From Ardenticatenales bacterium (lineage in GTDB: Bacteria; Chloroflexota; Anaerolineae; Epilineales; Epilineaceae), in the NCBI GenBank assembly GCA_039931375.1, contig JBDTSC010000002.1, positions 1-41,104 on the forward strand: DNA of 41,104 bases. Direction: 5' to 3'. The translations under genes were made by a program, and so were the position numbers. Shown piece after piece: positions 10,918-20,386 of this stretch. The notes under the pieces are model-generated. The model worked only from the letters and a program-made list of their open reading frames with translations. It was not told where the DNA came from and searched no databases. How positions within the stretch are numbered: position 1 is the stretch's first letter; each line of letters starts with the position of its first letter.

Positions 10918-11336
10918 CCAGCCACGCCCCCATTCCCGTCGACTCCATCGTCGGCTCGATCCCCGACCTCATGGCCGGCGTCCGCGTCGCCGAGTCCGCC
11001 CGCGCCGCCGGCATCCCGATGCGGCTGGTCGAGCGGGACGATTGGGCCGCCGCCCTGGTCGGCCCGCCACGGCCGGCGGGCGCCGTCGTCGACCTGACGG
11101 CGGACGGGGCCGTCGCGCGGATCGCGGCGGCGGTAGCGGCGGGCGTGCCGGTGCTCGCGTACGGCCCGCACGTCGACCTTGCGGTGATGGATGCCGCCGC
11201 GGCGGCCGGCGCGGTGCGGGTGGTGCCGCGCGGCCAGATGATGCAACAGGCGGGCCGGCTGCTGGCCGCCCTCGTTTCCGGCGCCGCAGCCGCCGGGCCA
11301 CCGTCCGCGGAGGATCGCGATGACGCCGGAACGTGA
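10914..11336 (+). CDS. Hypothetical small alpha/beta protein (possible receiver-like fold without the acidic pocket)
   Basis: ATG at 10914 within ORF 9825..11336, overlapping the upstream stop (ATGA). The 140-aa sequence has an alternating beta/alpha pattern (IPDLMAGVRVAESARAAG ... AVVDLTADG ... VLAYGPHVD). The function call is weak. Confidence 0.4.
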   Translation: MTSHAPIPVDSIVGSIPDLMAGVRVAESARAAGIPMRLVERDDWAAALVGPPRPAGAVVDLTADGAVARIAAAVAAGVPVLAYGPHVDLAVMDAAAAAGAVRVVPRGQMMQQAGRLLAALVSGAAAAGPPSAEDRDDAGT

Positions 11337-11658
11337 TCGCCTGGTCTACAGCACGAGCGGCGGCAAGGCGCCCAAGCCCGCGCCGGCCCGTGGCCCGAGC
11401 ATCAGCCGGCCGGCCGCGCAACAGGTGGCGTCCATCCGGCGCGAGAAGAAGGGGCGGGGCGGCAAGACCGTCACCGTCATCTATGACCTCGTGCTGAAGC
11501 CGGACGACCTCAAGGCGCTCGGCAAGCAGCTCAAAACGATCTGCGGCACCGGCGGGACGGTCAAAGACGGGACGATCGAGATCCAGGGCGACCACCGCGA
11601 CGCGATCGCCGCCGAGCTCCAGCGCGTCGGCTACAAGACGAAGTTCACCGGCGGCTGA
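11320..11658 (+). CDS. yciH: Translation initiation factor SUI1/eIF1 family protein (YciH-like)
   Basis: A 112-aa ORF. The central block EKKGRGGKTVTVI and the segment LKALGKQLKTICGTGGTVKDGTIEIQGDHRD are typical of bacterial SUI1/YciH. GGAGGA lies 5 nt upstream of the ATG. Confidence 0.85.
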   Translation: MTPERDRLVYSTSGGKAPKPAPARGPSISRPAAQQVASIRREKKGRGGKTVTVIYDLVLKPDDLKALGKQLKTICGTGGTVKDGTIEIQGDHRDAIAAELQRVGYKTKFTGG

Positions 11659-11816
11659 GATCCATCCGGCAAGGCGCCACCGCTGTTCCGATCCCCTGGG
11701 AACGCCGAGCTCCAGCTTGGCCATGACGAACAAGGTCCAACCTGCAAGATTCGGTACGATCACGTCCGCGCTGCCGGCCCACGCTGCCGACCGACGCAGC
11801 CGACCCGTGCTGTCGA

Positions 11817-13637
11817 TCAGCCCAGGACCGCGAAGATCCACCGCAGCCCAAACGCTACGAAGCAGCCGACCGCGGCGTACACCGCCATCGCGCGCGCCGG
11901 CCTGTGCTCGCGGTGCTCGTCGCCCTGCCGCCCGACCGATCCGCCGACGGCGCCGTACACCGCCCAACCGACCGTCCACGCGACCGCCAGCGCGCCGACC
12001 AACGGCGGCGTGCTCGCGGCCGAGGCCGTTTCGGCGCCCAGACCCCGGCGCCCGAGCTCGATGACCGCGGCGGTCAGCGCCGCGCCCGCCCAGCCGAGCG
12101 TCCAACCGATGCCGTTCTCGGCCAACGCCTGGCCGACCGGCGTGGCGCCGCCGCCCGTCGCGTTCGAGGGTCGCGCGACGGCTCGCAGCATCACGCTCAC
12201 GGCCAGCGCCGCGCCGCCGGAAAGCCACCCGCTCGCAAAGGACCACACGGCGCTCCCGGCGGCGCCGTCGCCCGCGGCACCTACGTTGGCGACGAGGACG
12301 GCCACGGCCACCGCGGCCGCCGCCGATCCAATCGCCGTCGCGAGCGCCACGGCCACGGCATGCGCCGCGCGCCGAACGCGGGCGGCGACGCGAGCCCAGA
12401 CGGACGAACCGGTCGGGGCCGCCGGCGCGGTGAGCGCGCGCCGGAGCACACGGGCCACCGTGCCGGCCGCAGCGCGAGCGCGCAAGACCACGGTCGATGC
12501 TTCCCGCCGAGGCGCAACCATGGGCGGGCGCACGGTGGCGGCGATCATCGGCTGGGCGGCAGTGCGTGGCGCACGACCTGGCGCACCGGGGGCGCGGATG
12601 CGCTCGGCGGGCGCTCGGCGGCGGGCGGGCCAGCCGGCGCCGCGGCGGCGGGCGCCGCACGTCGGGCAGGCGTCCAGGTGATCGGCGAACACGTGGCCAT
12701 TGCCGCACGTCGTCAGGTGGGCTTCGGCGTCCTCCAGGCGTCGCGCCCAGGACTCGGCCGTCGGCCGCTGGCGCGGGTCGGTGTGGCCGCGCACGAAGGC
12801 GGCGGCGAAGGCATCGACCAGGGCCGGATGGAGCTGGCCGATGCGGGCGGACCGCGGCGGCGGCGCGACGGGCCCGGCCGGTCGATCGAGGTAGGGGAAC
12901 CATCCCCGACGGATCTTCTCCTCGAGCGGCGGCGCCTCGCCCGACCCGAGCCACGCGCTCCGGAAGGGGTGGCTGCCGGCCATCAGCAGCTGGAAGATCA
13001 GCACGGCGAGGCCGAAGGAATCGTGTTCCGGCAAACGGACCGCGTCGCGGAACGGCTGGCCCTGCAGTTCGGGCGGCGTGTACTCGGCCCGTCCGACCGG
13101 ACACGGGTAGAAGACGATCTCGGCCGGGCGCAAGCGTTGGATCTGGAACGAGTCGGCGTCGATCAGCGTCACGAGCGCGCGGGGCGTGACCAGGATGTTG
13201 CGCTCGTTCAGATCGCCCACGATGACCCGCGTCGCGTGCAGTGCGTGGAGGGCGGAGGCCAGGTTGCGGGCGCAACGATGGAGGTAGGCCAGGTCGAACG
13301 CCGGCAGCGTCGCCGCGCGCCGCCGCGGGTTCAGCACGTCCAGGATGGGCACGGCCTCGCGAACGTGGGGCATGAGAAAGCCGATGAGCCGCCGCCCGTC
13401 GTCGTACAGGAGCTCGCGAGGCCACGCGATCGCGCTGTGCCCGGGCACGCCGGCCGGGTCCGCCGGCGGGTGGTCGCGCATCGCGCGCAGCTTGTCCTCC
13501 ATCGCCGTCCGGTCCGCGCTGAAGATCTTGGCCAGCAGCCGGCCGTCGCCGACGACGGTCCGGATGACCGCCTCGCCGCCGCGCGCCACCTCGTCGCCGA
13601 GGCGGACCGCGGCGCCGTCCGCCGTGCGCGCGATCAC
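11817..13637 (-). CDS. Atypical Ser/Thr protein kinase (YegI-like, TerY-P triad kinase) with a Zn-ribbon and a C-terminal polytopic membrane region
   Basis: The GTG at 13637 overlaps the PP2C stop (GTGA). Degenerate Hanks-type motifs are present: ARGGEAVI (G-loop), LLAKIF (Lys), VIVGDLNERNILV (catalytic loop), LIDADSF (DFG-like) and YTPPE (APE-like). These are followed by CGNGHVF..CPTCG, an Arg/Pro linker and about 5 Gly/Ala-rich hydrophobic segments. Confidence 0.75.
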   Translation of the reverse strand: MIARTADGAAVRLGDEVARGGEAVIRTVVGDGRLLAKIFSADRTAMEDKLRAMRDHPPADPAGVPGHSAIAWPRELLYDDGRRLIGFLMPHVREAVPILDVLNPRRRAATLPAFDLAYLHRCARNLASALHALHATRVIVGDLNERNILVTPRALVTLIDADSFQIQRLRPAEIVFYPCPVGRAEYTPPELQGQPFRDAVRLPEHDSFGLAVLIFQLLMAGSHPFRSAWLGSGEAPPLEEKIRRGWFPYLDRPAGPVAPPPRSARIGQLHPALVDAFAAAFVRGHTDPRQRPTAESWARRLEDAEAHLTTCGNGHVFADHLDACPTCGARRRGAGWPARRRAPAERIRAPGAPGRAPRTAAQPMIAATVRPPMVAPRREASTVVLRARAAAGTVARVLRRALTAPAAPTGSSVWARVAARVRRAAHAVAVALATAIGSAAAAVAVAVLVANVGAAGDGAAGSAVWSFASGWLSGGAALAVSVMLRAVARPSNATGGGATPVGQALAENGIGWTLGWAGAALTAAVIELGRRGLGAETASAASTPPLVGALAVAWTVGWAVYGAVGGSVGRQGDEHREHRPARAMAVYAAVGCFVAFGLRWIFAVLG

Positions 13638-14533
13638 GGCGGATCGGCGGGCGCGGGCCGAGCGGCCAGCACCAGCGTCACGTCGTCGTCCGTGCGCGCC
13701 CGAACGCGCGGGGATTCGAGGAACGCGGTCAGCGCCCGATCGGCCCGGCCTCCCTGGTCTGCGTCTCCCGCCATGTACCCGTCGACCGCGACGGGCCGTG
13801 AAACGAACCGAAAGAGCGGTTCGAAGAACCCGACGTGCGGGGTTCGCTCGGCCATGTTCATCGCCAGCCTGAGCAGCCCGTCCGTCAGCAACGCGACGGC
13901 GGCGACCGGGCCGTCGAAGCGTTGCATCGTCTCGATCGCCGTTTCGACGGCGTTCGGCGAGGTCAGGAACACGGTCTCGTTCGCGTACGCGCCGCGCTCG
14001 GGCGCTGAAAGCGGCACCAGCGCGTGCGTCGCTGCACTGCTTGCTGCGTCGTCCTCGCCTTCGTCGTGTCCGCCCTCGTCGTGGCCACCCTCGTCGTGGC
14101 CACCCTCGTCGACGCCGACCACGACGAAGCCGTCGCCGATCTGCGCCGCGAGCGCGCCGTCCGGCCCGACCATGGCGCACGACAGCGTGCACGCCAGGTC
14201 GCGCGGGGCGAGGCCTTCCGCCTCGGCCAGGGCGTGCACCGCGGCGGCGGCGGCGCGCAGCGCGGCGGCAAGCGCGGTGGCGGCTCGGTCGCCCCTCGTC
14301 TCACCGTTGTCCATCGATGCGTCGAACAGGGTGCCCACGGCGGCCGCGACGGCGACGGACGCACCACGCGCGCTGTGCGGCGCGCTCCCCGCGCCGTCGG
14401 CGATGGCGGCGACGAGCACGCCGTCCGGGCGGATCCGGGCGGCGTGGGCATCCTGGCACACCGTTCCGGCGGCCGCGTGCGAAGAGCCGATGACGCTGGC
14501 GGCGGCCAGCCGCCAAGGGGCCGCCGTGGTCAA
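13634..14533 (-). CDS. PP2C-like Ser/Thr protein phosphatase (YegK/PphC-like)
   Basis: ORF 13634..14836 on the minus strand. The likely start is the TTG at 14533, overlapping the vWA stop (TTGA). Motifs WRLAAASVIGSSHAAAGTVCQDAH, VAAIADGAGSA and AAQIGDGFVVV match the bacterial PP2C_2 type. The start codon choice is uncertain. Confidence 0.7.
   Translation of the reverse strand: MTTAAPWRLAAASVIGSSHAAAGTVCQDAHAARIRPDGVLVAAIADGAGSAPHSARGASVAVAAAVGTLFDASMDNGETRGDRAATALAAALRAAAAAVHALAEAEGLAPRDLACTLSCAMVGPDGALAAQIGDGFVVVGVDEGGHDEGGHDEGGHDEGEDDAASSAATHALVPLSAPERGAYANETVFLTSPNAVETAIETMQRFDGPVAAVALLTDGLLRLAMNMAERTPHVGFFEPLFRFVSRPVAVDGYMAGDADQGGRADRALTAFLESPRVRARTDDDVTLVLAARPAPADPP
14059..14103 (-). 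repeat. In-frame 15-nt tandem repeat (3 copies) inside the PP2C gene, encoding (EGGHD)x3
   Basis: Plus-strand units are CTTCGTCGTGTCCGC, CCTCGTCGTGGCCAC and CCTCGTCGTGGCCAC. The protein reads VDEGGHDEGGHDEGGHDEGEDD. Confidence 0.85.
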
Positions 14534-15300
14534 TTGGACGTGTCGGCGACGGCCCAACCGACCGGCGGCAGCGGCGCCTGGTCGCCGGGGCGCGACTGCG
14601 AGACGGCGGACAGGCTCTTGGAGAGCCACGTGAACAGCTCGGCGAACGCGAGGCCGCCCAGCTTGAGTGGCGGGCGGTCGACGGCGCAGAAGCGCGCCAG
14701 GATGCGCATGTCGGCGCCCTCCACCCCGACGCCGTAGATCGAGACGCCGCGGCGCGCCTCCTCGGCCTGCGCCTCGGCGGCAGCGGTTTCCCAGCCGCGG
14801 TCCGTCGGCCGGCCGTCCGTCAGCAGGAGCAGCCACGGCCGGAAGTAGTCGATGCCGTTCGCGCGGTAGCGCTCCTTGCGGGCGCGCAACAACGCCAGCG
14901 CCCGCTCGACGGCCTCGCCCATCGGCGTATCGCCGTCCGCCGTGAGGGTCGGCGCCTCGAAGCGGTCGACGGTCGTGAAGACGTCCGCCGGGTCGGCGGG
15001 CGGGGACGCTCCGCCGGACGGATCCGTGACGCGCACGGCGCCGCCGAACGCGACGACGGCGATCTCGACGCGCAGGCTGGCCAGCGCGTCCGCTTTCAGC
15101 GCCGCGGCAAGGCGCTGGAGGCCGGCGTTCAGCTCGGCGATCGGGCGCCCGTGCATCGACCCCGAGGTGTCGAGGACGAGCGCGACGGCGCAGCGCGGTT
15201 CGGGGTTGTCAGCGAACTCGACGCCGGCGAGCGCGTCGCCGTGCAGCGGGTCCGCGGATCGTGGATCGATGGGCGATGCCATGGCGGAGGGGTCGGTCAT
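14530..15300 (-). CDS. von Willebrand factor A domain protein, TerY/YegL-like
   Basis: MIDAS motif LVLDTSGSM, the segment LLLLTDGRPTD, and the family-typical C-terminal tail FAELFTWLSKSLSAVSQS. AAGGA lies about 8 nt upstream of the ATG. Confidence 0.85.
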   Translation of the reverse strand: MTDPSAMASPIDPRSADPLHGDALAGVEFADNPEPRCAVALVLDTSGSMHGRPIAELNAGLQRLAAALKADALASLRVEIAVVAFGGAVRVTDPSGGASPPADPADVFTTVDRFEAPTLTADGDTPMGEAVERALALLRARKERYRANGIDYFRPWLLLLTDGRPTDRGWETAAAEAQAEEARRGVSIYGVGVEGADMRILARFCAVDRPPLKLGGLAFAELFTWLSKSLSAVSQSRPGDQAPLPPVGWAVADTSN

Positions 15301-15324
15301 CGGATCGTCCTTTCGGGGGCGGTG

Positions 15325-16128
15325 CTAGGGGCGGGGGAACGAGAGCGTGCGTACGACTACGCCGGACGGGGTCACGCGGACCACGGCGTAGCCGGGCGGC
15401 GCCGTGCGGTCCTCGCCGGCGACCTCATCCGTCGGCCCACCGGTCAGTTGAGCGAACGTGCTCGGCGCGGCGGAATAGAAGATCCCGTCCACCACGCTGT
15501 GCAACGCCTGATGGATGTGGCCAAGGAACACCCCGCGCACGCGGTGCGCCACCGCCGCGAGCCGCCGATGGAGCGTCTCGCCGTCCACCACCAACATCGT
15601 CCGATCGATCCACGGCGACCCGACGCGCAGCAACGGGAAGTGCGTGAAGACGGTCAGCGGCGGCCCGTCGGACGTGAGCTCGCGGTCGATAACCGCCCAC
15701 TGGGCCGGCGAAATCCGCCCGTGCGGGTCGATCTCGTCCGGACCGCGCGCGTCGATGGCCAGGAAGCGGTGGCCGCGCAGGTCGAAGGCGTACGACCAGG
15801 CCTGATCGTCGGGCAGCAGCGGCGTGTGCGGGCCGATGGGCATGCAGCGCCGCAGGTCGGCGGCGGTGTCGTGGTTGCCGACGGCGCAGTACAGCGGGAC
15901 GGTCAGGCGCGCGAAGACGGACTGGGCATGCGCGTAGCTCGCCGCGGCCGGCTCCGTGACGACATCGCCGGTATGCACGACGAAGTCCGGCGCGGGGTCG
16001 AGCGCGTTGATCAACTCGACCATCCGTTCGGCGCACGGCAGCGCCGCCAGCCCGTGGCGGGCAAAGTCGGCCGTCGGGCCGATGTGGCTGTCCGAGATGT
16101 GGATGAAGGTCACGTCGCCGATGTCCAT
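15325..16128 (-). CDS. Calcineurin-like metallophosphoesterase (CpdA/Icc-like class III phosphodiesterase family)
   Basis: All five signature blocks are visible: ISDSH, HTGD, GNHD, FTHFP and LGHIH. It ends 24 nt upstream of the vWA gene on the same strand. Confidence 0.85.
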   Translation of the reverse strand: MDIGDVTFIHISDSHIGPTADFARHGLAALPCAERMVELINALDPAPDFVVHTGDVVTEPAAASYAHAQSVFARLTVPLYCAVGNHDTAADLRRCMPIGPHTPLLPDDQAWSYAFDLRGHRFLAIDARGPDEIDPHGRISPAQWAVIDRELTSDGPPLTVFTHFPLLRVGSPWIDRTMLVVDGETLHRRLAAVAHRVRGVFLGHIHQALHSVVDGIFYSAAPSTFAQLTGGPTDEVAGEDRTAPPGYAVVRVTPSGVVVRTLSFPRP

Positions 16129-16240
16129 GGCCGTCCTCGTACGCTGCCGCGGCGGTTCGCGTGAGGATACCGCAGCGCGAACCAGCGGACCTAGCCGGGG
16201 CGGCCGCGAACAACGCGGCGAACCCTCAGCAGGCGGCGCC

Positions 16241-16891
16241 TCAACGCAGCCGCCACGCCAGCTTGAGTGTGGCGGGCCATTCGCGCAGCCGCCACCACGC
16301 CATCGACATCGCCGGATAGGACCGCCGGTCGGCCGCGACGCCGATGATCGTGGCGTCCCAGGGGCGGCACGCCATCAGCGCTCGTGGCATGTGATACGCC
16401 TGGGTGATCAGGACAACCCGCTCGTCGGGGTGTTCGTGCGTCCATCGGGCCAGCCACCCCGCACAGCTGTCGTATGTGCTCGTGCCCCGGCTATCCAGCA
16501 GGATGGCCGTCGCCGGAACGCCGAGCCGTTCGGCCAGGCGCGCCATCGTATCCGGCTCATCCCGCCCGTTCGCGCCGACCGCGCCGCTCATGACCACACG
16601 ATCCACCTTGCCGGCGTGGTAGAGCGCGGCGGCGGTCCGTACCCGATCGTACAGAATCGGCGTTGGCGAGCCGTCGGGCCAGATGCCGGCGCCGAACACG
16701 AACGCCATCGTCCGCTGCGGGACGGCTTGAAGCGTGAATGTCCGGGTGCGGGCGGCCATCGCGCTGTCGCGCATCGGCCAGCCGGCGCCGGCCGCGGCGA
16801 GGGCGGCCAGCGCGACGAGGGCGCCCCCGATGTACGGGGCGCCGCCGATGTACGGGGCGCGTGAAAGGCGTGGATCGTCCAGACGGTGCAT
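16241..16891 (-). CDS. sanA: SanA/YdcF (DUF218) family membrane-anchored protein
   Basis: An N-terminal TM segment (GALVALAALAAAGAGW) is followed by FVFGAGIWPDGSPTPILYDRV, DEPDTMARLAERLGVP, LLDSRGTSTYDS and VVLITQAYHMPRA. Confidence 0.8.
   Translation of the reverse strand: MHRLDDPRLSRAPYIGGAPYIGGALVALAALAAAGAGWPMRDSAMAARTRTFTLQAVPQRTMAFVFGAGIWPDGSPTPILYDRVRTAAALYHAGKVDRVVMSGAVGANGRDEPDTMARLAERLGVPATAILLDSRGTSTYDSCAGWLARWTHEHPDERVVLITQAYHMPRALMACRPWDATIIGVAADRRSYPAMSMAWWRLREWPATLKLAWRLR
16821..16856 (-). repeat. 18-nt tandem duplication in the sanA 5' region, encoding APYIGG twice
   Basis: GCGCCCCCGATGTACGGG is followed by GCGCCGCCGATGTACGGG (17 of 18 identical). Confidence 0.8.
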
Positions 16892-16996
16892 GAACGTAAG
16901 GGTACCCGCATCGAGCGATCGGCGGCCCCCTCTTGCCCGCCGCGCGGCCGCCGCGAAACCGTCGCACGGTCACCGAAACCGTTAACACCGTCGCAG

Positions 16997-17028
16997 CTGC
17001 CCTCGGCCCATCCTGCCCTCGGCCCATC
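16997..17028. repeat. Perfect 16-nt tandem duplication (CTGCCCTCGGCCCATC twice) in the comM-sanA intergenic region
   Basis: Read directly from the sequence. Nearby direct repeats of CGAAACCGT and ACCGTCGCA occur at about 16954-16994. Confidence 0.8.
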
Positions 17029-17099
17029 CCGGCCGACCCTAGCCCTCGCCGGGGGTCGCAGAACGTCACCAACCGTCGTACCACGATCATCCCCCCACT

Positions 17100-18851
17100 T
17101 CAAGCGCTCTGCCGCGGCCGGTATTGCAGCGCCTCGGCCACGTGCCGCGTGGCGATGGCCTCCGACGCCTCGAGGTCCGCGATCGTGCGCGCCACCTTGA
17201 GGATGCGATGGAAGGCGCGAGCAGACAGGCCGAGGCGTCGCATGGCGGCCCGCAGCAGCGCCTCGCTCTCCGCGTCGATGCGGCAATCGCGGCGCACTTG
17301 GGACGCGGTCAGCTCCGCGTTGCATCGCGCGCGCGGGTCGCCCAATCGAAACGCGCGGGTCGCCCGCTCCGAAGGTTCGTCCGATCCGCGGCCCGTTGGC
17401 CCGCCCCGCTCCCACGACGCTTCCGGCGCAAGCGGCGTGTCGTCCTGCATCGACGGTGCAAGCGCAAGGGCGTCGTCGGCCCCGATGGATGCGACGAGAG
17501 CGGCGGGGTCCACGAGCGCGACCGGGGGCGGTACGCCGCCGTTAGGGTCCGTCCGGTGCGGTGCGTCCTCGTCGGCCCCGCGCAGCCGGGCGGTCTGTCG
17601 ATCCCGCGCCGCGACGACCCTCGCCCGCACGGCCGACGATGGCTCGCCGCTCGCGCCGCCGAGGAGCTTTTCGTGCGGCACCCGCGGCACCTCGAGGTGG
17701 AGATCGATCCGATCGATCAGCGGCCCGCTGACACGACGACCGTACCGCAGCACGGCCGAGACGGCGCACGTGCACGCGTGGTCGGGGTCGCCGAAGAAGC
17801 CGCACGGGCACGGGTTGCGCGCGGCGACGAGCGTCACGCTGGCCGGGAACACCGCGCTGCCGGCGGCGCGGGCGATCGTCACGCGGCGGTCCTCGATGGG
17901 CTGCCGAAGCCCCTCGAGGACGGCGGCGTCGAACTCCGGCAGCTCGTCGAGGAACAGCACGCCGTGGTGCGCCAGGGAGACCTCGCCAGGCCGCGGCCAC
18001 GAGCCGCCGCCGATCAGGCCGGCGTTCGAGATCGTGTGGTGGGGTGAGCGGAACGGGCGGGCCCGGATCAGCGGCACGTCCGCTGGGAGCAGCCCGGCCA
18101 CGGAGTAGACGGCGGTGACCTCGAGCGATTCCTCGAGCGAGAGCGGCGGCAGGATCGTCGGCAGGCAGCGCGCGAGCATCGTCTTGCCGCCGCCCGGCGG
18201 GCCGGTGAGGGAGAGGTTGTGCCCGCCGGCGGCGGCGATCTCGAGGGCACGGCGGGCGTGCTCCTGCCCGCGCACCTCGCTCAGGTCCGTCAGCGCCGCC
18301 TGCTCGTACGACGACGCGATCGGCGGGATGGGCGGCAGCGGCTTGCCCGTGCGCAGATGGTGCACCAGTTCCTTCAGGCTGTCGGCGGCCACGACGTCGA
18401 GGCCGGGCACGAGCGCCGCCTCGGCCGCGTTGGCCGCGGGGACGATCACGCGGTGGAAACCGTGGCAGCGGGCGGCGACGGCCACGGGCAGGATGCCGTG
18501 GGTCCGGCGTAACCGCCCGTCCAGCGCGACCTCGCCGAACACTAGGGCATCGTCCAGACGGGCCGGGAGCTGATCGCTCGCGGCCAGGATGCCGAGCGCG
18601 ATCGCCAGATCGTAGTGCGGACCGACCTTACGGACGTGCGCGGGCGCCAGGTTGATCGTGATCCGCGCCATCGGAAAGCCGAACCCGGCGTTGCGCAGCG
18701 CGGCGTAGAGGCGATCCTTCGATTCGCGCACCGTCAGATCGGGCAGACCGACCAGCGTGACGTGCGGCAGGCCGTTGTGAATGTCGACCTCGACCTGAAC
18801 CAGCTCTCCCTCGAGCCCCGCCAGGGCGCAGCTCCAAACCCGTGCCAACAT
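17100..18851 (-). CDS. comM: YifB/ComM-family Mg-chelatase-like AAA+ ATPase
   Basis: Start at the internal Met of ORF 17100..18902 (MLARVWSC). Lon-like N-domain, Walker A GPPGGGKT, Walker B LFLDELPEF, Zn motif CPCGFFGDPDHACTC, and C-terminal LSARAFHRILKVARTIADL. Confidence 0.9.
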   Translation of the reverse strand: MLARVWSCALAGLEGELVQVEVDIHNGLPHVTLVGLPDLTVRESKDRLYAALRNAGFGFPMARITINLAPAHVRKVGPHYDLAIALGILAASDQLPARLDDALVFGEVALDGRLRRTHGILPVAVAARCHGFHRVIVPAANAAEAALVPGLDVVAADSLKELVHHLRTGKPLPPIPPIASSYEQAALTDLSEVRGQEHARRALEIAAAGGHNLSLTGPPGGGKTMLARCLPTILPPLSLEESLEVTAVYSVAGLLPADVPLIRARPFRSPHHTISNAGLIGGGSWPRPGEVSLAHHGVLFLDELPEFDAAVLEGLRQPIEDRRVTIARAAGSAVFPASVTLVAARNPCPCGFFGDPDHACTCAVSAVLRYGRRVSGPLIDRIDLHLEVPRVPHEKLLGGASGEPSSAVRARVVAARDRQTARLRGADEDAPHRTDPNGGVPPPVALVDPAALVASIGADDALALAPSMQDDTPLAPEASWERGGPTGRGSDEPSERATRAFRLGDPRARCNAELTASQVRRDCRIDAESEALLRAAMRRLGLSARAFHRILKVARTIADLEASEAIATRHVAEALQYRPRQSA

Positions 18852-19051
18852 CGATCGCCTCCTGTGCCGCCCGCCGGAATCCAGCACGGGGCATGGGCAC
18901 ACCGTACCCGACGAGGCCGTGCGGTGCTACGCGCATGCGGACAGATGCGCGACACGAGGACGACACGGGTCCGACGCTTGCGCCGCCCGCCGATCGGGTA
19001 TACTACCCAGCGCCTGGGTGCCCCGACCCAGCCTCTCGTATGGGTGCGCAC

Positions 19052-20386
19052 ATGACCCTGACCCTGACCGACGCCCCCGTCCGGCCCCCCGCCGCCGCTT
19101 CGCCGGAGCGCGAACGCGTCTACGTTCTGCGCGGCGGTGCGCGGCTCAGCGGAACCGTCCAGATCGGCGGCGCGAAGAACGTCGCCCTCCCGATCCTGGC
19201 CGCGACGCTCCTCACGGCCGACCCGTGCGTCATCGAAAACGTGCCGGACATCGCGGACATCCGCGTTATGCTCGACCTGCTGCGCCACATGGGCGCGACG
19301 ATCGACTTCGATCCGACGGCCGGCCGGGTCACGATCGCGTGCGCCGACATCCGCACCCGAACGACGCCGGACGGCCTGGCGGAGCGGTTCCGCGGCAGCT
19401 TCCTGGTGATGGGCCCGCTGCTCGCCCGGTTCGGCCAAGCCAGCACCGCTCGGCCGGGCGGCTGCAACATCGGCTCACGGCCCGTCGACGTGCACAGCAA
19501 GGGGTTTCGCGCGCTCGGCGCGGAGGTCGCCAACGTCGATCATCGGTTCGCCGCGAGCGGCAAGCTCAAGGGCGCGAGCATCCTGCTGGACGTCCCAAGC
19601 CACACGGGCACCGAGAACATCATCATGGCGGCGGTTCTGGCGGAAGGCCTTACCGTCATCGAGAATGCCAGCATCGAACCCGAAGTGCTCGACCTCGTGG
19701 ACTTCCTCCGCTCGCTGGGCGCCCGGATCGCCTGGACCTCGACGGCCCGTCAGCTCGTGATCCAGGGGGTTCCGCGCCTGCACGGCACGGTGTATCGGCT
19801 GATGCCCGACCGCCTCGAGGCCGGCACGTACCTGCTGGCGGGCGCCATCACGCGCGGCGATGTGACCGTGGAGCGGGTGGTGCCCGATCATCTCCGCTCG
19901 GTGACCTCCAAACTGGTCGAGGCGGGCGCGCGGATCGAGGAACGGGACCACAGCGTACGGGTCATCGTCGACGGCCCGCTGACGGCGGTCGATGTCCACA
20001 CGTACTTCTATCCCGGATTCCCCACCGACCTCCAACAACCGTTCACGGCGCTTCTTACCCAGGCCACGGGCGAGAGCATCGTTCAGGAAACCGTGTTCGA
20101 GGCCCGGATGACGTATGCTTACGAGCTTCAGCGCATGGGCGCTGACGTCCGTGTGAACGGTTCGACGGCGTTCGTCAACGGCCCGTGTCGGCTCCACGGC
20201 ACGACGGTGACCGCGCACGATCTGCGGGCCGGCGCCGCCGTCATGCTGGCGGCCCTGACGGCGGAGGGCGACACGCTGATCCGCGCCGCGCACACGGTGG
20301 AACGCGGCTACAACGGTCTCATCGATAACCTGTGCGCCCTGGGCGCCGTCGGTCACGCCGATTGGCTGGAGACGATCCCCGACTAG
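19052..20386 (+). CDS. murA: UDP-N-acetylglucosamine 1-carboxyvinyltransferase
   Basis: Motifs [23 protein letters not shown] and the active-site loop [15 protein letters not shown] with the catalytic Cys. The ATG at 19052 is used; 19040 is an alternative. The N-terminal extension of about 20 aa is uncertain. Confidence 0.9.

What the first reader, a model, noticed from the sequence alone, without database searches (positions are those of the whole stretch)
11817..16128. Four-gene coupled cassette of metallophosphoesterase, TerY/YegL-like vWA protein, PP2C phosphatase and atypical membrane Ser/Thr kinase
Seen in the sequence:
- Four minus-strand genes are packed with almost no spacing. There are 24 nt with an AAGGA site between the phosphoesterase and the vWA gene, a TTGA overlap from vWA to PP2C, and a GTGA overlap from PP2C to the kinase.
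- The vWA protein has an intact MIDAS motif (DTSGS) and the TerY/YegL-type tail.
- The phosphatase has bacterial PP2C_2-type motifs.
- The kinase keeps only degenerate Hanks motifs: LAKIF, GDLNERN, DADSF and TPPE.

Established knowledge, from memory: the vWA plus PP2C plus kinase trio was described computationally as the TerY-P triad, and it corresponds to E. coli yegL, yegK (pphC) and yegI. Its physiological role and substrates are still unknown.

Inference: a calcineurin-like (CpdA/Icc-type) phosphoesterase sits here as the first cistron of the same apparent operon. This suggests a phosphorylation switch joined to a nucleotide or phosphoester hydrolysing step, which would make it a candidate stress-sensing or defence-type signalling module. 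It lies between unrelated housekeeping genes (SUI1 on one side, sanA and comM on the other), as an accessory insertion would.
Basis: partly seen in the sequence, partly recalled or inferred. Interest (0 to 1): 0.72.

Follow-up and report, generated by a model that had tools for sequence, protein, structure and literature searches.

The report
YegL–PphC–YegI kinase triad beside phosphoesterase
The four genes are real, but three of them are an ordinary copy of a known bacterial signalling trio (metal-binding vWA protein, PP2C phosphatase, membrane Ser/Thr kinase), and the phosphoesterase in front looks like a resident neighbour that a few close relatives share, not a fourth component.

Summary
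Four minus-strand genes lie at 11817-16128 with the junctions described: a 24-nt spacer containing GAAAGGA, a TTGA overlap and a GTGA overlap.

Family searches place them in Metallophos, VWA, PP2C_2 and, just below threshold, Pkinase. The last three match E. coli YegL (48% identity), PphC (37%) and the kinase plus zinc-ribbon part of YegI (34%, E 4e-45). The residues essential in YegI are conserved. This is a new member of the known TerY-P/YegL-PphC-YegI triad, in a Chloroflexota (Anaerolineae) genome.

The proposed fourth component is not supported as a conserved part.
- The phosphoesterase belongs to a widespread Anaerolineae CpdA/GpdQ-like family.
- Its orthologues at 55-61% identity (4 of 4) and three more distant relatives (41-46%) sit in unrelated contexts with no triad.
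- None of 34 YegL-type and about 46 TerY-type loci from other species has such a phosphoesterase within 7 kb. The gene upstream of the vWA differs from locus to locus.
- The adjacency appears only in five closely related lineages (phosphoesterase at least 75% identical). There the housekeeping flanks (ComM, SUI1, glycosyltransferase) are syntenic too.

Co-transcription is plausible in this clade. Functional coupling is not shown. There is no compositional or repeat evidence of a recent insertion.

The parts
15325..16128 (-). Calcineurin-like metallophosphoesterase (267 aa) of the CpdA/Icc/GpdQ/Rv0805 type. A neighbour of the triad, probably the first gene of the same transcript, and not a conserved triad component.
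   Evidence: Pfam Metallophos 57.7 bits. NCBIfam CpdA 66 bits and SpdA 64.5 bits, far below the equivalog cut-offs of 225 and 400. Nearest solved structures are GpdQ 2zo9/2dxl (E 1.5e-12) and Rv0805 (E 9e-11). All metal-binding motifs are intact. The family is widespread in Anaerolineae.
15301..15324 (-). 24-nt spacer between the phosphoesterase and the vWA gene, with the Shine-Dalgarno-like GAAAGGA 7 nt before the ATG.
   Evidence: Read directly. It is conserved in L002 (22 nt) but is 67 nt and different in L095.
14530..15300 (-). YegL/TerY-like vWA protein (256 aa) with the MIDAS motif DTSGS and the YegL-type C-terminal tail.
   Evidence: Pfam VWA 50 bits. 48% identity to E. coli YegL, E 6e-60. 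Alignment A1. Sources name many homologues 'uncharacterized protein YegL'.
13634..14533 (-). PphC(YegK)-like PP2C_2 Ser/Thr phosphatase (299 aa, TTG start in a TTGA overlap).
   Evidence: Pfam PP2C_2 137.6 bits. 37% identity to PphC, E 5e-42, with CQDA, ADGAGS, TDG and TDDD conserved.
14047..14111 (-). In-frame 15-nt tandem repeat (about 4 copies) inside the PP2C gene. It encodes a GGHDE-repeat insert.
   Evidence: Tandem Repeats Finder, score 60-88. The insert shows as a gap against PphC.
12723..13637 (-). YegI-like Ser/Thr kinase domain (aa 1-305 of the 606-aa protein; GTG start in a GTGA overlap). K37, D142 and S163 match the residues essential in YegI.
   Evidence: 34% identity over 339 aa to YegI, E 4e-45. 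Pfam Pkinase 26.7 bits, below the 31.7 cut-off. YegI K39, D141 and Ser-162 are essential for autophosphorylation (bioRxiv 10.1101/819920). I mapped the positions by hand from the alignment.
12657..12707 (-). Zinc-ribbon-like C311-x3-H315-x8-C324-x2-C327 directly after the kinase domain.
   Evidence: Pattern match. It aligns with the YegI segment C..H..CPWC. The TerY-P kinase is described as fused to a zinc ribbon (PMC11090510).
11817..12368 (-). C-terminal hydrophobic region of the kinase (aa 424-606, with 4-5 hydrophobic segments) plus the stop codon. A clade-specific membrane anchor.
   Evidence: Kyte-Doolittle windows. Homologous only to L002. YegI is an experimentally shown two-pass membrane protein.
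16163..16171 (-). Conserved GGTATCCTC motif about 35 nt upstream of the phosphoesterase ATG. A candidate -10-like element (inference only).
   Evidence: Alignment of the DUF218-phosphoesterase spacers of the window, L002 and L095. The sigma-70 consensus scan found nothing.

Best explanation
Genes 11817-15300 are a self-contained YegL-PphC-YegI (TerY-P-type) phosphorylation module in an Anaerolineae (Chloroflexota) chromosome.

Likely mechanism:
- The kinase is anchored in the membrane by its C-terminal hydrophobic region. It activates by autophosphorylation in its DxDS loop. This is shown for YegI and inferred here from the conserved K37, D142 and S163.
- The PP2C_2 phosphatase resets the kinase. 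This is shown for PphC acting on YegI and inferred here.
- The MIDAS-bearing vWA protein acts as the metal- or ligand-binding sensor, adaptor or substrate. This is a hypothesis from the literature.
- The three genes are translationally coupled, which favours balanced amounts of the three products.

The phosphoesterase gene at 15325-16128 is a lineage-resident CpdA/GpdQ-like enzyme that lies directly upstream. In this clade it is probably on the same transcript, but it is not a conserved or required partner of the triad.
For: Homology to the E. coli trio. Family assignments.

The triad is conserved on its own. Of 34 YegL-type loci spread over many phyla, 28 have the order vWA, PP2C, YegI-like kinase.

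No phosphoesterase accompanies other triads. No homologue was found in any of the 80 vWA-centred loci, by phmmer and by a family HMM at E<0.01. That HMM did detect relatives of 24-33% identity elsewhere.

The upstream neighbours of other triads are heterogeneous: RIO1 kinase x3, ABC ATPase x3, type I restriction R subunit, ribonucleotide reductase, Tex, dynamin-like, gamma-glutamyltranspeptidase, transposases and integrases.

Phosphoesterase orthologues at 55-61% identity lie in four different contexts without a triad. The same holds for relatives at 41-46%.

The adjacency occurs only where ComM, SUI1 and the glycosyltransferase genes are also syntenic: L002, L095, L098 and L100.

Biochemistry of YegI and PphC.
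Against: - The phosphoesterase-vWA spacer is only 22-31 nt in three lineages and carries a good ribosome-binding site. No room for a promoter is evident, so the vWA gene is probably transcribed through the phosphoesterase gene.
- The adjacency survived the loss of DUF218 in L098.
- Synteny in Chloroflexota decays fast, so absence at 55-61% identity is weaker evidence than it would be in better-conserved genomes.
- Pfam results for singleton upstream neighbours were only partly displayed (25 of 123 families). One distant Metallophos upstream of another triad cannot be fully excluded.
Confidence: 0.8

Rival explanations
1. A true four-gene cassette. In this Anaerolineae clade the CpdA/GpdQ-like phosphoesterase has been recruited as the effector or input enzyme of the triad, for example by hydrolysing a nucleotide second messenger under phospho-control.
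For: - Tight spacing with a ribosome-binding site.
- The adjacency is kept in five related lineages, including one that lost DUF218.
- A conserved motif suggests a transcript start upstream of the phosphoesterase gene.
- TerY-P triads are known to pair with varied partners (PMC11090510).
Against: - There is no co-occurrence outside the clade, from either side of the pair.
- The phosphoesterase has the same length and motifs as its stand-alone orthologues, so nothing points to a new function.
- The depth of the adjacency equals the depth of housekeeping synteny.
- In L100 the phosphoesterase gene appears interrupted while the vWA gene is intact, although that contig has only 1.8x coverage.
Confidence: 0.12
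2. The triad is a stand-alone anti-phage defence system of the TerY-P kind reported by Gao et al. 2020.
For: - It has the same three-protein make-up.
- TerY-P is reported to protect against T7-like phages (PMC7699616).
- Some YegL-type loci lie next to a type I restriction R subunit, integrases or transposases.
Against: - The validated TerY-P-like modules are described as having the kinase fused to a C-terminal OB fold (PMC11090510). Here the C-terminus is a hydrophobic membrane region with no detectable domain.
- The locus is chromosomal, in a fixed position between housekeeping genes, with no neighbouring defence genes in view.
- PADLOC gave no hit for the vWA protein or the phosphatase. This is uninformative, because E. 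coli YegL and PphC also gave none.
Confidence: 0.25
3. The ORFs are artefacts of a high-GC sequence and not real genes.
For: At 72-78% GC, long spurious ORFs occur in all six frames.
Against: Each of the four ORFs has strong family and homologue support and conserved catalytic motifs.
Confidence: 0.01

Closest known systems
E. coli yegL-pphC(yegK)-yegI locus
   Same: - Same three proteins in the same order, with a four-nucleotide overlap between phosphatase and kinase genes (ATGA in E. coli B strains, GTGA here).
- Identities of 48%, 37% and 34%.
- The essential kinase residues (K39, D141 and Ser-162 in YegI) are conserved.
- A zinc-ribbon-like motif follows the kinase domain, then a membrane segment.
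   Different: - The kinase region after the zinc ribbon is unrelated: 4-5 hydrophobic segments and no long cytoplasmic tail, against two transmembrane helices plus a tail in YegI.
- The PP2C carries a GGHDE-repeat insert.
- The E. coli locus has no phosphoesterase upstream; sibA/ibsA lie there instead.
- The host is a Chloroflexota bacterium.
TerY-P triad (Anantharaman, Iyer and Aravind 2012, as summarised in PMC11090510)
   Same: TerY-like vWA protein, PP2C phosphatase and Ser/Thr kinase fused to a C-terminal zinc ribbon, proposed as a metal-sensing phosphorylation switch.
   Different: - There is a single vWA gene. The classical TerY clusters seen in Acinetobacter, Chryseobacterium and Bacteroidota carry 2-3 vWA genes and a larger phosphatase (L046-L087).
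- This locus is not linked to ter genes, CoCoNuT/McrBC or other DNA-processing genes.
TerY-P anti-phage system (Gao et al. 2020, via PMC7699616 and PMC11090510)
   Same: The same three enzymatic or binding activities.
   Different: The kinase C-terminus is reported as an OB fold there and is a membrane region here. No defence phenotype has been tested, and the locus is not in a defence-island context.
Class III cyclic-nucleotide phosphodiesterases and glycerophosphodiesterases (CpdA/Icc, Rv0805, GpdQ)
   Same: The phosphoesterase has the complete D-x-H / GD / GNHD / H / GHxH metal-binding set and matches these proteins best among solved structures.
   Different: Only family-level similarity: 64-66 bits against equivalog cut-offs of 225-400. 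The substrate is unknown.

Membership tests
TerY-P / YegL-PphC-YegI triad | TerY/YegL-like vWA protein with a MIDAS motif | tested here: met
   Pfam VWA 50 bits; DTSGS at aa 44; 48% identity to YegL including the C-terminal tail.
TerY-P / YegL-PphC-YegI triad | PP2C-type Ser/Thr phosphatase encoded next to the vWA gene | tested here: met
   PP2C_2 137.6 bits; 37% identity to PphC; TTGA overlap with the vWA gene.
TerY-P / YegL-PphC-YegI triad | Ser/Thr kinase of the YegI type with its catalytic residues | tested here: met
   E 4e-45 to YegI over 339 aa. K37, D142 and S163 correspond to the YegI residues essential for autophosphorylation. Pfam Pkinase is below its cut-off (26.7 against 31.7), which fits a family described as lacking several conserved kinase residues.
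TerY-P / YegL-PphC-YegI triad | Zinc ribbon fused C-terminally to the kinase domain | tested here: met
   C311, H315, C324 and C327 align with the corresponding YegI segment. This is sequence pattern only; no structure was predicted.
TerY-P / YegL-PphC-YegI triad | Conserved gene order vWA, PP2C, kinase with tight coupling | tested here: met
   Overlaps TTGA and GTGA. The same order occurs in 28 of 34 YegL-type loci.
Gao 2020 TerY-P defence system | Kinase fused to a C-terminal OB fold | tested here: not met
   Pfam finds no domain after the kinase. The C-terminus consists of hydrophobic segments. This is a weak test, by sequence only.
Gao 2020 TerY-P defence system | Protection against phage | not testable with these tools
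   Needs a plaque assay. PADLOC is uninformative, because it did not hit E. coli YegL or PphC or the TerY-type clusters either.
Class III cNMP phosphodiesterase (CpdA/Icc) | Metallophosphoesterase motifs D-x-H, GD, GNH[DE], H, GHxH | tested here: met
   D13xH15, G54D, G84NHD and G203HIH. Metallophos 57.7 bits.
Class III cNMP phosphodiesterase (CpdA/Icc) | Score above the NCBIfam equivalog cut-off for CpdA or SpdA | tested here: not met
   66 bits against 225, and 64.5 bits against 400.
Proposed four-gene cassette (phosphoesterase + triad) | Co-occurrence of the phosphoesterase with the triad in independent lineages | tested here: not met
   - None of the 80 vWA-centred loci from other species has the phosphoesterase.
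- None of 7 more distant phosphoesterase relatives has a triad beside it.
- The pairing is present only in five closely related, fully syntenic lineages.

Proposed four-gene cassette (phosphoesterase + triad) | Co-transcription of the phosphoesterase gene with the triad | not testable with these tools
   The short spacer and ribosome-binding site are compatible with it. The consensus scans found neither promoter nor terminator anywhere in 11200-19200.

The most novel reading that the evidence does not exclude
In one shallow Anaerolineae clade, a resident CpdA/GpdQ-like phosphodiesterase has been captured as the first cistron of a YegL-PphC-YegI operon and works with it. For example, the membrane kinase and phosphatase pair could control the turnover of a nucleotide messenger or phosphodiester. 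That would give the first defined output for this long-uncharacterised triad.
Probability: 0.1. Interest if true: 0.55.

Novelty: new member of a known kind. Interest (0 to 1): 0.22.

Why it matters
The YegL-PphC-YegI/TerY-P triad is widespread; this search found 1771 close vWA homologues at E<=1e-40. Its physiological input and output are still poorly defined. A conserved fourth enzyme would have been a useful handle on its function.

The survey shows that the triad travels alone and that its upstream neighbour is essentially arbitrary. The phosphoesterase link here should therefore not be used to infer function.

The locus does add a Chloroflexota example with a distinct polytopic membrane anchor on the kinase. 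It also confirms that the catalytic Lys and Asp and the activating Ser mapped in E. coli YegI are conserved across phyla.

Tried and rejected
- **PADLOC scan.** No vWA or PP2C hits. E. coli YegL and PphC and the TerY-type clusters gave none either, so this says nothing about defence.
- **Promoter and terminator consensus scan.** Zero sites. Uninformative for a 72% GC Chloroflexota sequence.
- **Metagenome scan with the phosphoesterase.** Only 8 loci, of which 3 had usable flanks.
- **Look-ups of the window's own vWA and phosphoesterase proteins and of P0032.** Not on record.
- **Search for insertion hallmarks.** Only imperfect GC-rich chance repeats flank the genes. There are no tRNA genes or Rfam matches in the window. 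GC and GC3 equal those of the flanks. 'Recent accessory insertion' is rejected as unsupported.
- **Literature search for a link between TerY or vWA triads and a metallophosphoesterase.** Nothing relevant.
- **Spurious-ORF explanation.** Considered and rejected on the homology results.
- **Structure prediction and fold search.** Not run, because they would not bear on the adjacency question.


Full report
**1. Observation**

The window is 65-78% GC, so long ORFs occur in every frame.
- Phosphoesterase (MPE): 15325-16128, 267 aa, ATG start.
- A 24-nt spacer containing GAAAGGA ends 7 nt before the ATG of the vWA gene.
- vWA gene: 14530-15300, 256 aa.
- vWA stop and PP2C start overlap as TTGA. PP2C gene: 13634-14533, 299 aa.
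- PP2C stop and kinase start overlap as GTGA. Kinase gene: 11817-13637, 606 aa.

Pfam gives Metallophos 57.7 bits, VWA 50 bits and PP2C_2 137.6 bits. Pkinase scores 26.7 bits, which is below its 31.7-bit cut-off.

The flanks are SUI1 (convergent) on one side and DUF218/SanA then ComM on the other. Both of the latter are on the same strand as the four genes.

**2. What the trio is**

BLASTP against the E. coli K-12 proteins, taken from NC_000913, gives:
- YegL: 48% identity, E 6e-60.
- PphC/YegK: 37% identity, E 5e-42.
- YegI: 34% identity over residues 5-336, E 4e-45.

The YegI match covers the kinase domain and a C..H..CxxC segment that corresponds to the zinc ribbon described for TerY-P kinases (PMC11090510).

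In YegI, Lys-39, Asp-141 and Ser-162 are each essential for autophosphorylation, and the protein is a two-pass inner-membrane protein (bioRxiv 10.1101/819920). Counting along the alignment by hand, these residues correspond to K37, D142 and S163 here. PphC is reported to dephosphorylate YegI (cited in PMC13232886).

The region after the zinc ribbon (aa 340-606) has 4-5 hydrophobic segments. It has homologues only in the closest relative. A hydrophobic segment directly after the zinc ribbon is the rule in YegI-type kinases from other phyla, so 'membrane kinase' is a family trait and not a peculiarity of this locus.

**3. Is the phosphoesterase part of the module? The phosphoesterase side**

The protein belongs to a large, well-conserved family of Chloroflexota, chiefly Anaerolineae, Promineifilaceae and Ardenticatenales. 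There are 302 hits at E<=1e-10, and the 120 best are 48-82% identical over the full length.

- The closest relatives at 82% and 76% identity (L002/L003, L095) have the same arrangement of phosphoesterase, vWA, PP2C and kinase.
- All four orthologues examined at 55-61% identity lie in four different neighbourhoods with no vWA, PP2C or kinase gene. These are L004, L093, the P0013 contig and L094.
- Three relatives at 41-46% identity (L005-L007) also have no triad.

**4. Is the phosphoesterase part of the module? The triad side**

A scan of one genome per species with a YegL alignment returned 80 loci, each with up to 7 kb of flank on either side.

- Thirty-four are YegL-type. They come from Chloroflexota, Cyanobacteria, Acidobacteriota, Alpha-, Beta- and Gammaproteobacteria, Verrucomicrobiota, Planctomycetota, Clostridia and others.
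- Twenty-eight of these show vWA, PP2C and a YegI-like kinase in that order.
- The remaining loci are mostly multi-vWA TerY-type clusters.
- No locus contains a homologue of the phosphoesterase, either by phmmer or by an HMM built from 120 family members at E<0.01. That HMM did recover relatives of 24-33% identity in other loci.

The genes upstream of the vWA are heterogeneous: RIO1 kinase x3, ABC ATPase x3, a type I restriction R subunit, ribonucleotide reductase, Tex, a dynamin-like GTPase, an oxidoreductase, a LysM protein, transposases and integrases.

Intermediate relatives found through the vWA protein fix the boundary.
- At 81% and 76% vWA identity (L098, L100) the phosphoesterase is upstream.
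- At 69% (L101, an Ardenticatenia genome) the upstream gene is a gamma-glutamyltranspeptidase and no phosphoesterase is present.

**5. Reading of the survey**

Wherever the adjacency exists, the housekeeping flanks are syntenic as well: MurA and ComM upstream, SUI1 and glycosyltransferases downstream. The adjacency therefore reaches exactly as deep as ordinary synteny in this clade. The triad itself keeps its order across phyla. That is what chance neighbours look like, not functional partners.

The short spacers (22-31 nt in three lineages, 67 nt in L095) and a motif conserved about 35 nt upstream of the phosphoesterase ATG make co-transcription in this clade plausible. Co-transcription alone does not establish a shared function.

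The phosphoesterase shows no change in length or motifs compared with its stand-alone orthologues.

**6. Insertion claim**

GC3 of the four genes (0.88-0.93) is the same as that of the neighbours (0.85-0.92). There are no flanking repeats of note, no tRNA genes or Rfam matches, and no integrase. The block sits at the same place in all five related lineages. A recent accessory insertion is not supported. An old insertion cannot be excluded.

**7. Function**

The best-supported mechanism is the one worked out in part for E. coli. A membrane-anchored kinase autophosphorylates, a PP2C reverses this, and the MIDAS vWA protein serves as the presumed sensor, adaptor or substrate.

The physiological role is open. 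TerY-P-like modules have been reported as anti-phage systems (PMC7699616), but those are described with an OB fold at the kinase C-terminus (PMC11090510). This kinase lacks one by sequence. PADLOC cannot decide the matter, because it does not recognise E. coli YegL or PphC either.

**8. Verdict**

The interpretation of a four-gene cassette is not supported. This is a new member of a known kind. Interest is low. There is a small residual chance, about 0.1, that the phosphoesterase is a clade-specific recruit to the operon.

Noticed in passing
window 14047-14111: In-frame 15-nt tandem repeat (about 4 copies) in the PP2C gene. It encodes a GGHDE-GGHDE-GGHDE-GEDD insert that is absent from E. coli PphC. 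The L002 orthologue, at 268 aa, is 31 aa shorter. This may be a variable acidic/His loop.
   Followed up: partly
window 16819-16860: 18-nt repeat (2.3 copies) at the N-terminus of the DUF218/SanA gene, encoding APYIGG-APYIGG.
   Followed up: no
window 16997-17028: Perfect 16-nt tandem duplication, CTGCCCTCGGCCCATC x2, in the spacer between comM and the DUF218 gene.
   Followed up: no
window 16163-16171; L002 about 7965; L095 about 750: The motif GGTATCCTC (TCATCCTC in L095) is conserved about 35 nt upstream of the phosphoesterase ATG in three relatives. It may be a -10-like promoter element.
   Followed up: partly
L002 10375-12167: In the closest relative (GCA_046328485.1) the kinase matches in three different reading frames after about aa 255. 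This is either an assembly frameshift or a pseudogene.
   Followed up: partly
L100 2732-3535: The phosphoesterase orthologue is interrupted (called as 206 aa plus 57 aa; only aa 1-236 match) while the adjacent vWA gene is intact. The contig has only about 1.8x coverage, so this may be a sequencing error.
   Followed up: partly
L098 4394-6969: This relative lacks the DUF218/SanA gene between ComM and the phosphoesterase gene, yet keeps the phosphoesterase next to the triad.
   Followed up: no
L015 2639-3655, L016 5714-6862, L018 5763-6851: In three Chloroflexota genomes a RIO1-type kinase gene lies co-oriented just upstream of the YegL-like vWA gene. L015 and L018 have no YegI-like kinase after the PP2C. 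This may be a variant of the triad in which the kinase has been replaced.
   Followed up: partly
L041 5976-9147 (Calothrix sp. PCC 7103): The gene order is permuted to kinase, vWA, PP2C. The kinase is short (326 aa) and the PP2C long (504 aa).
   Followed up: no
L046-L087: Classical multi-vWA TerY clusters in Acinetobacter, Enterobacter, Chryseobacterium, Chitinophaga and others. They carry 2-3 vWA genes, a roughly 600-aa PP2C-like protein and a roughly 500-aa kinase. They are clearly distinct from the single-vWA YegL type found in the window.
   Followed up: no
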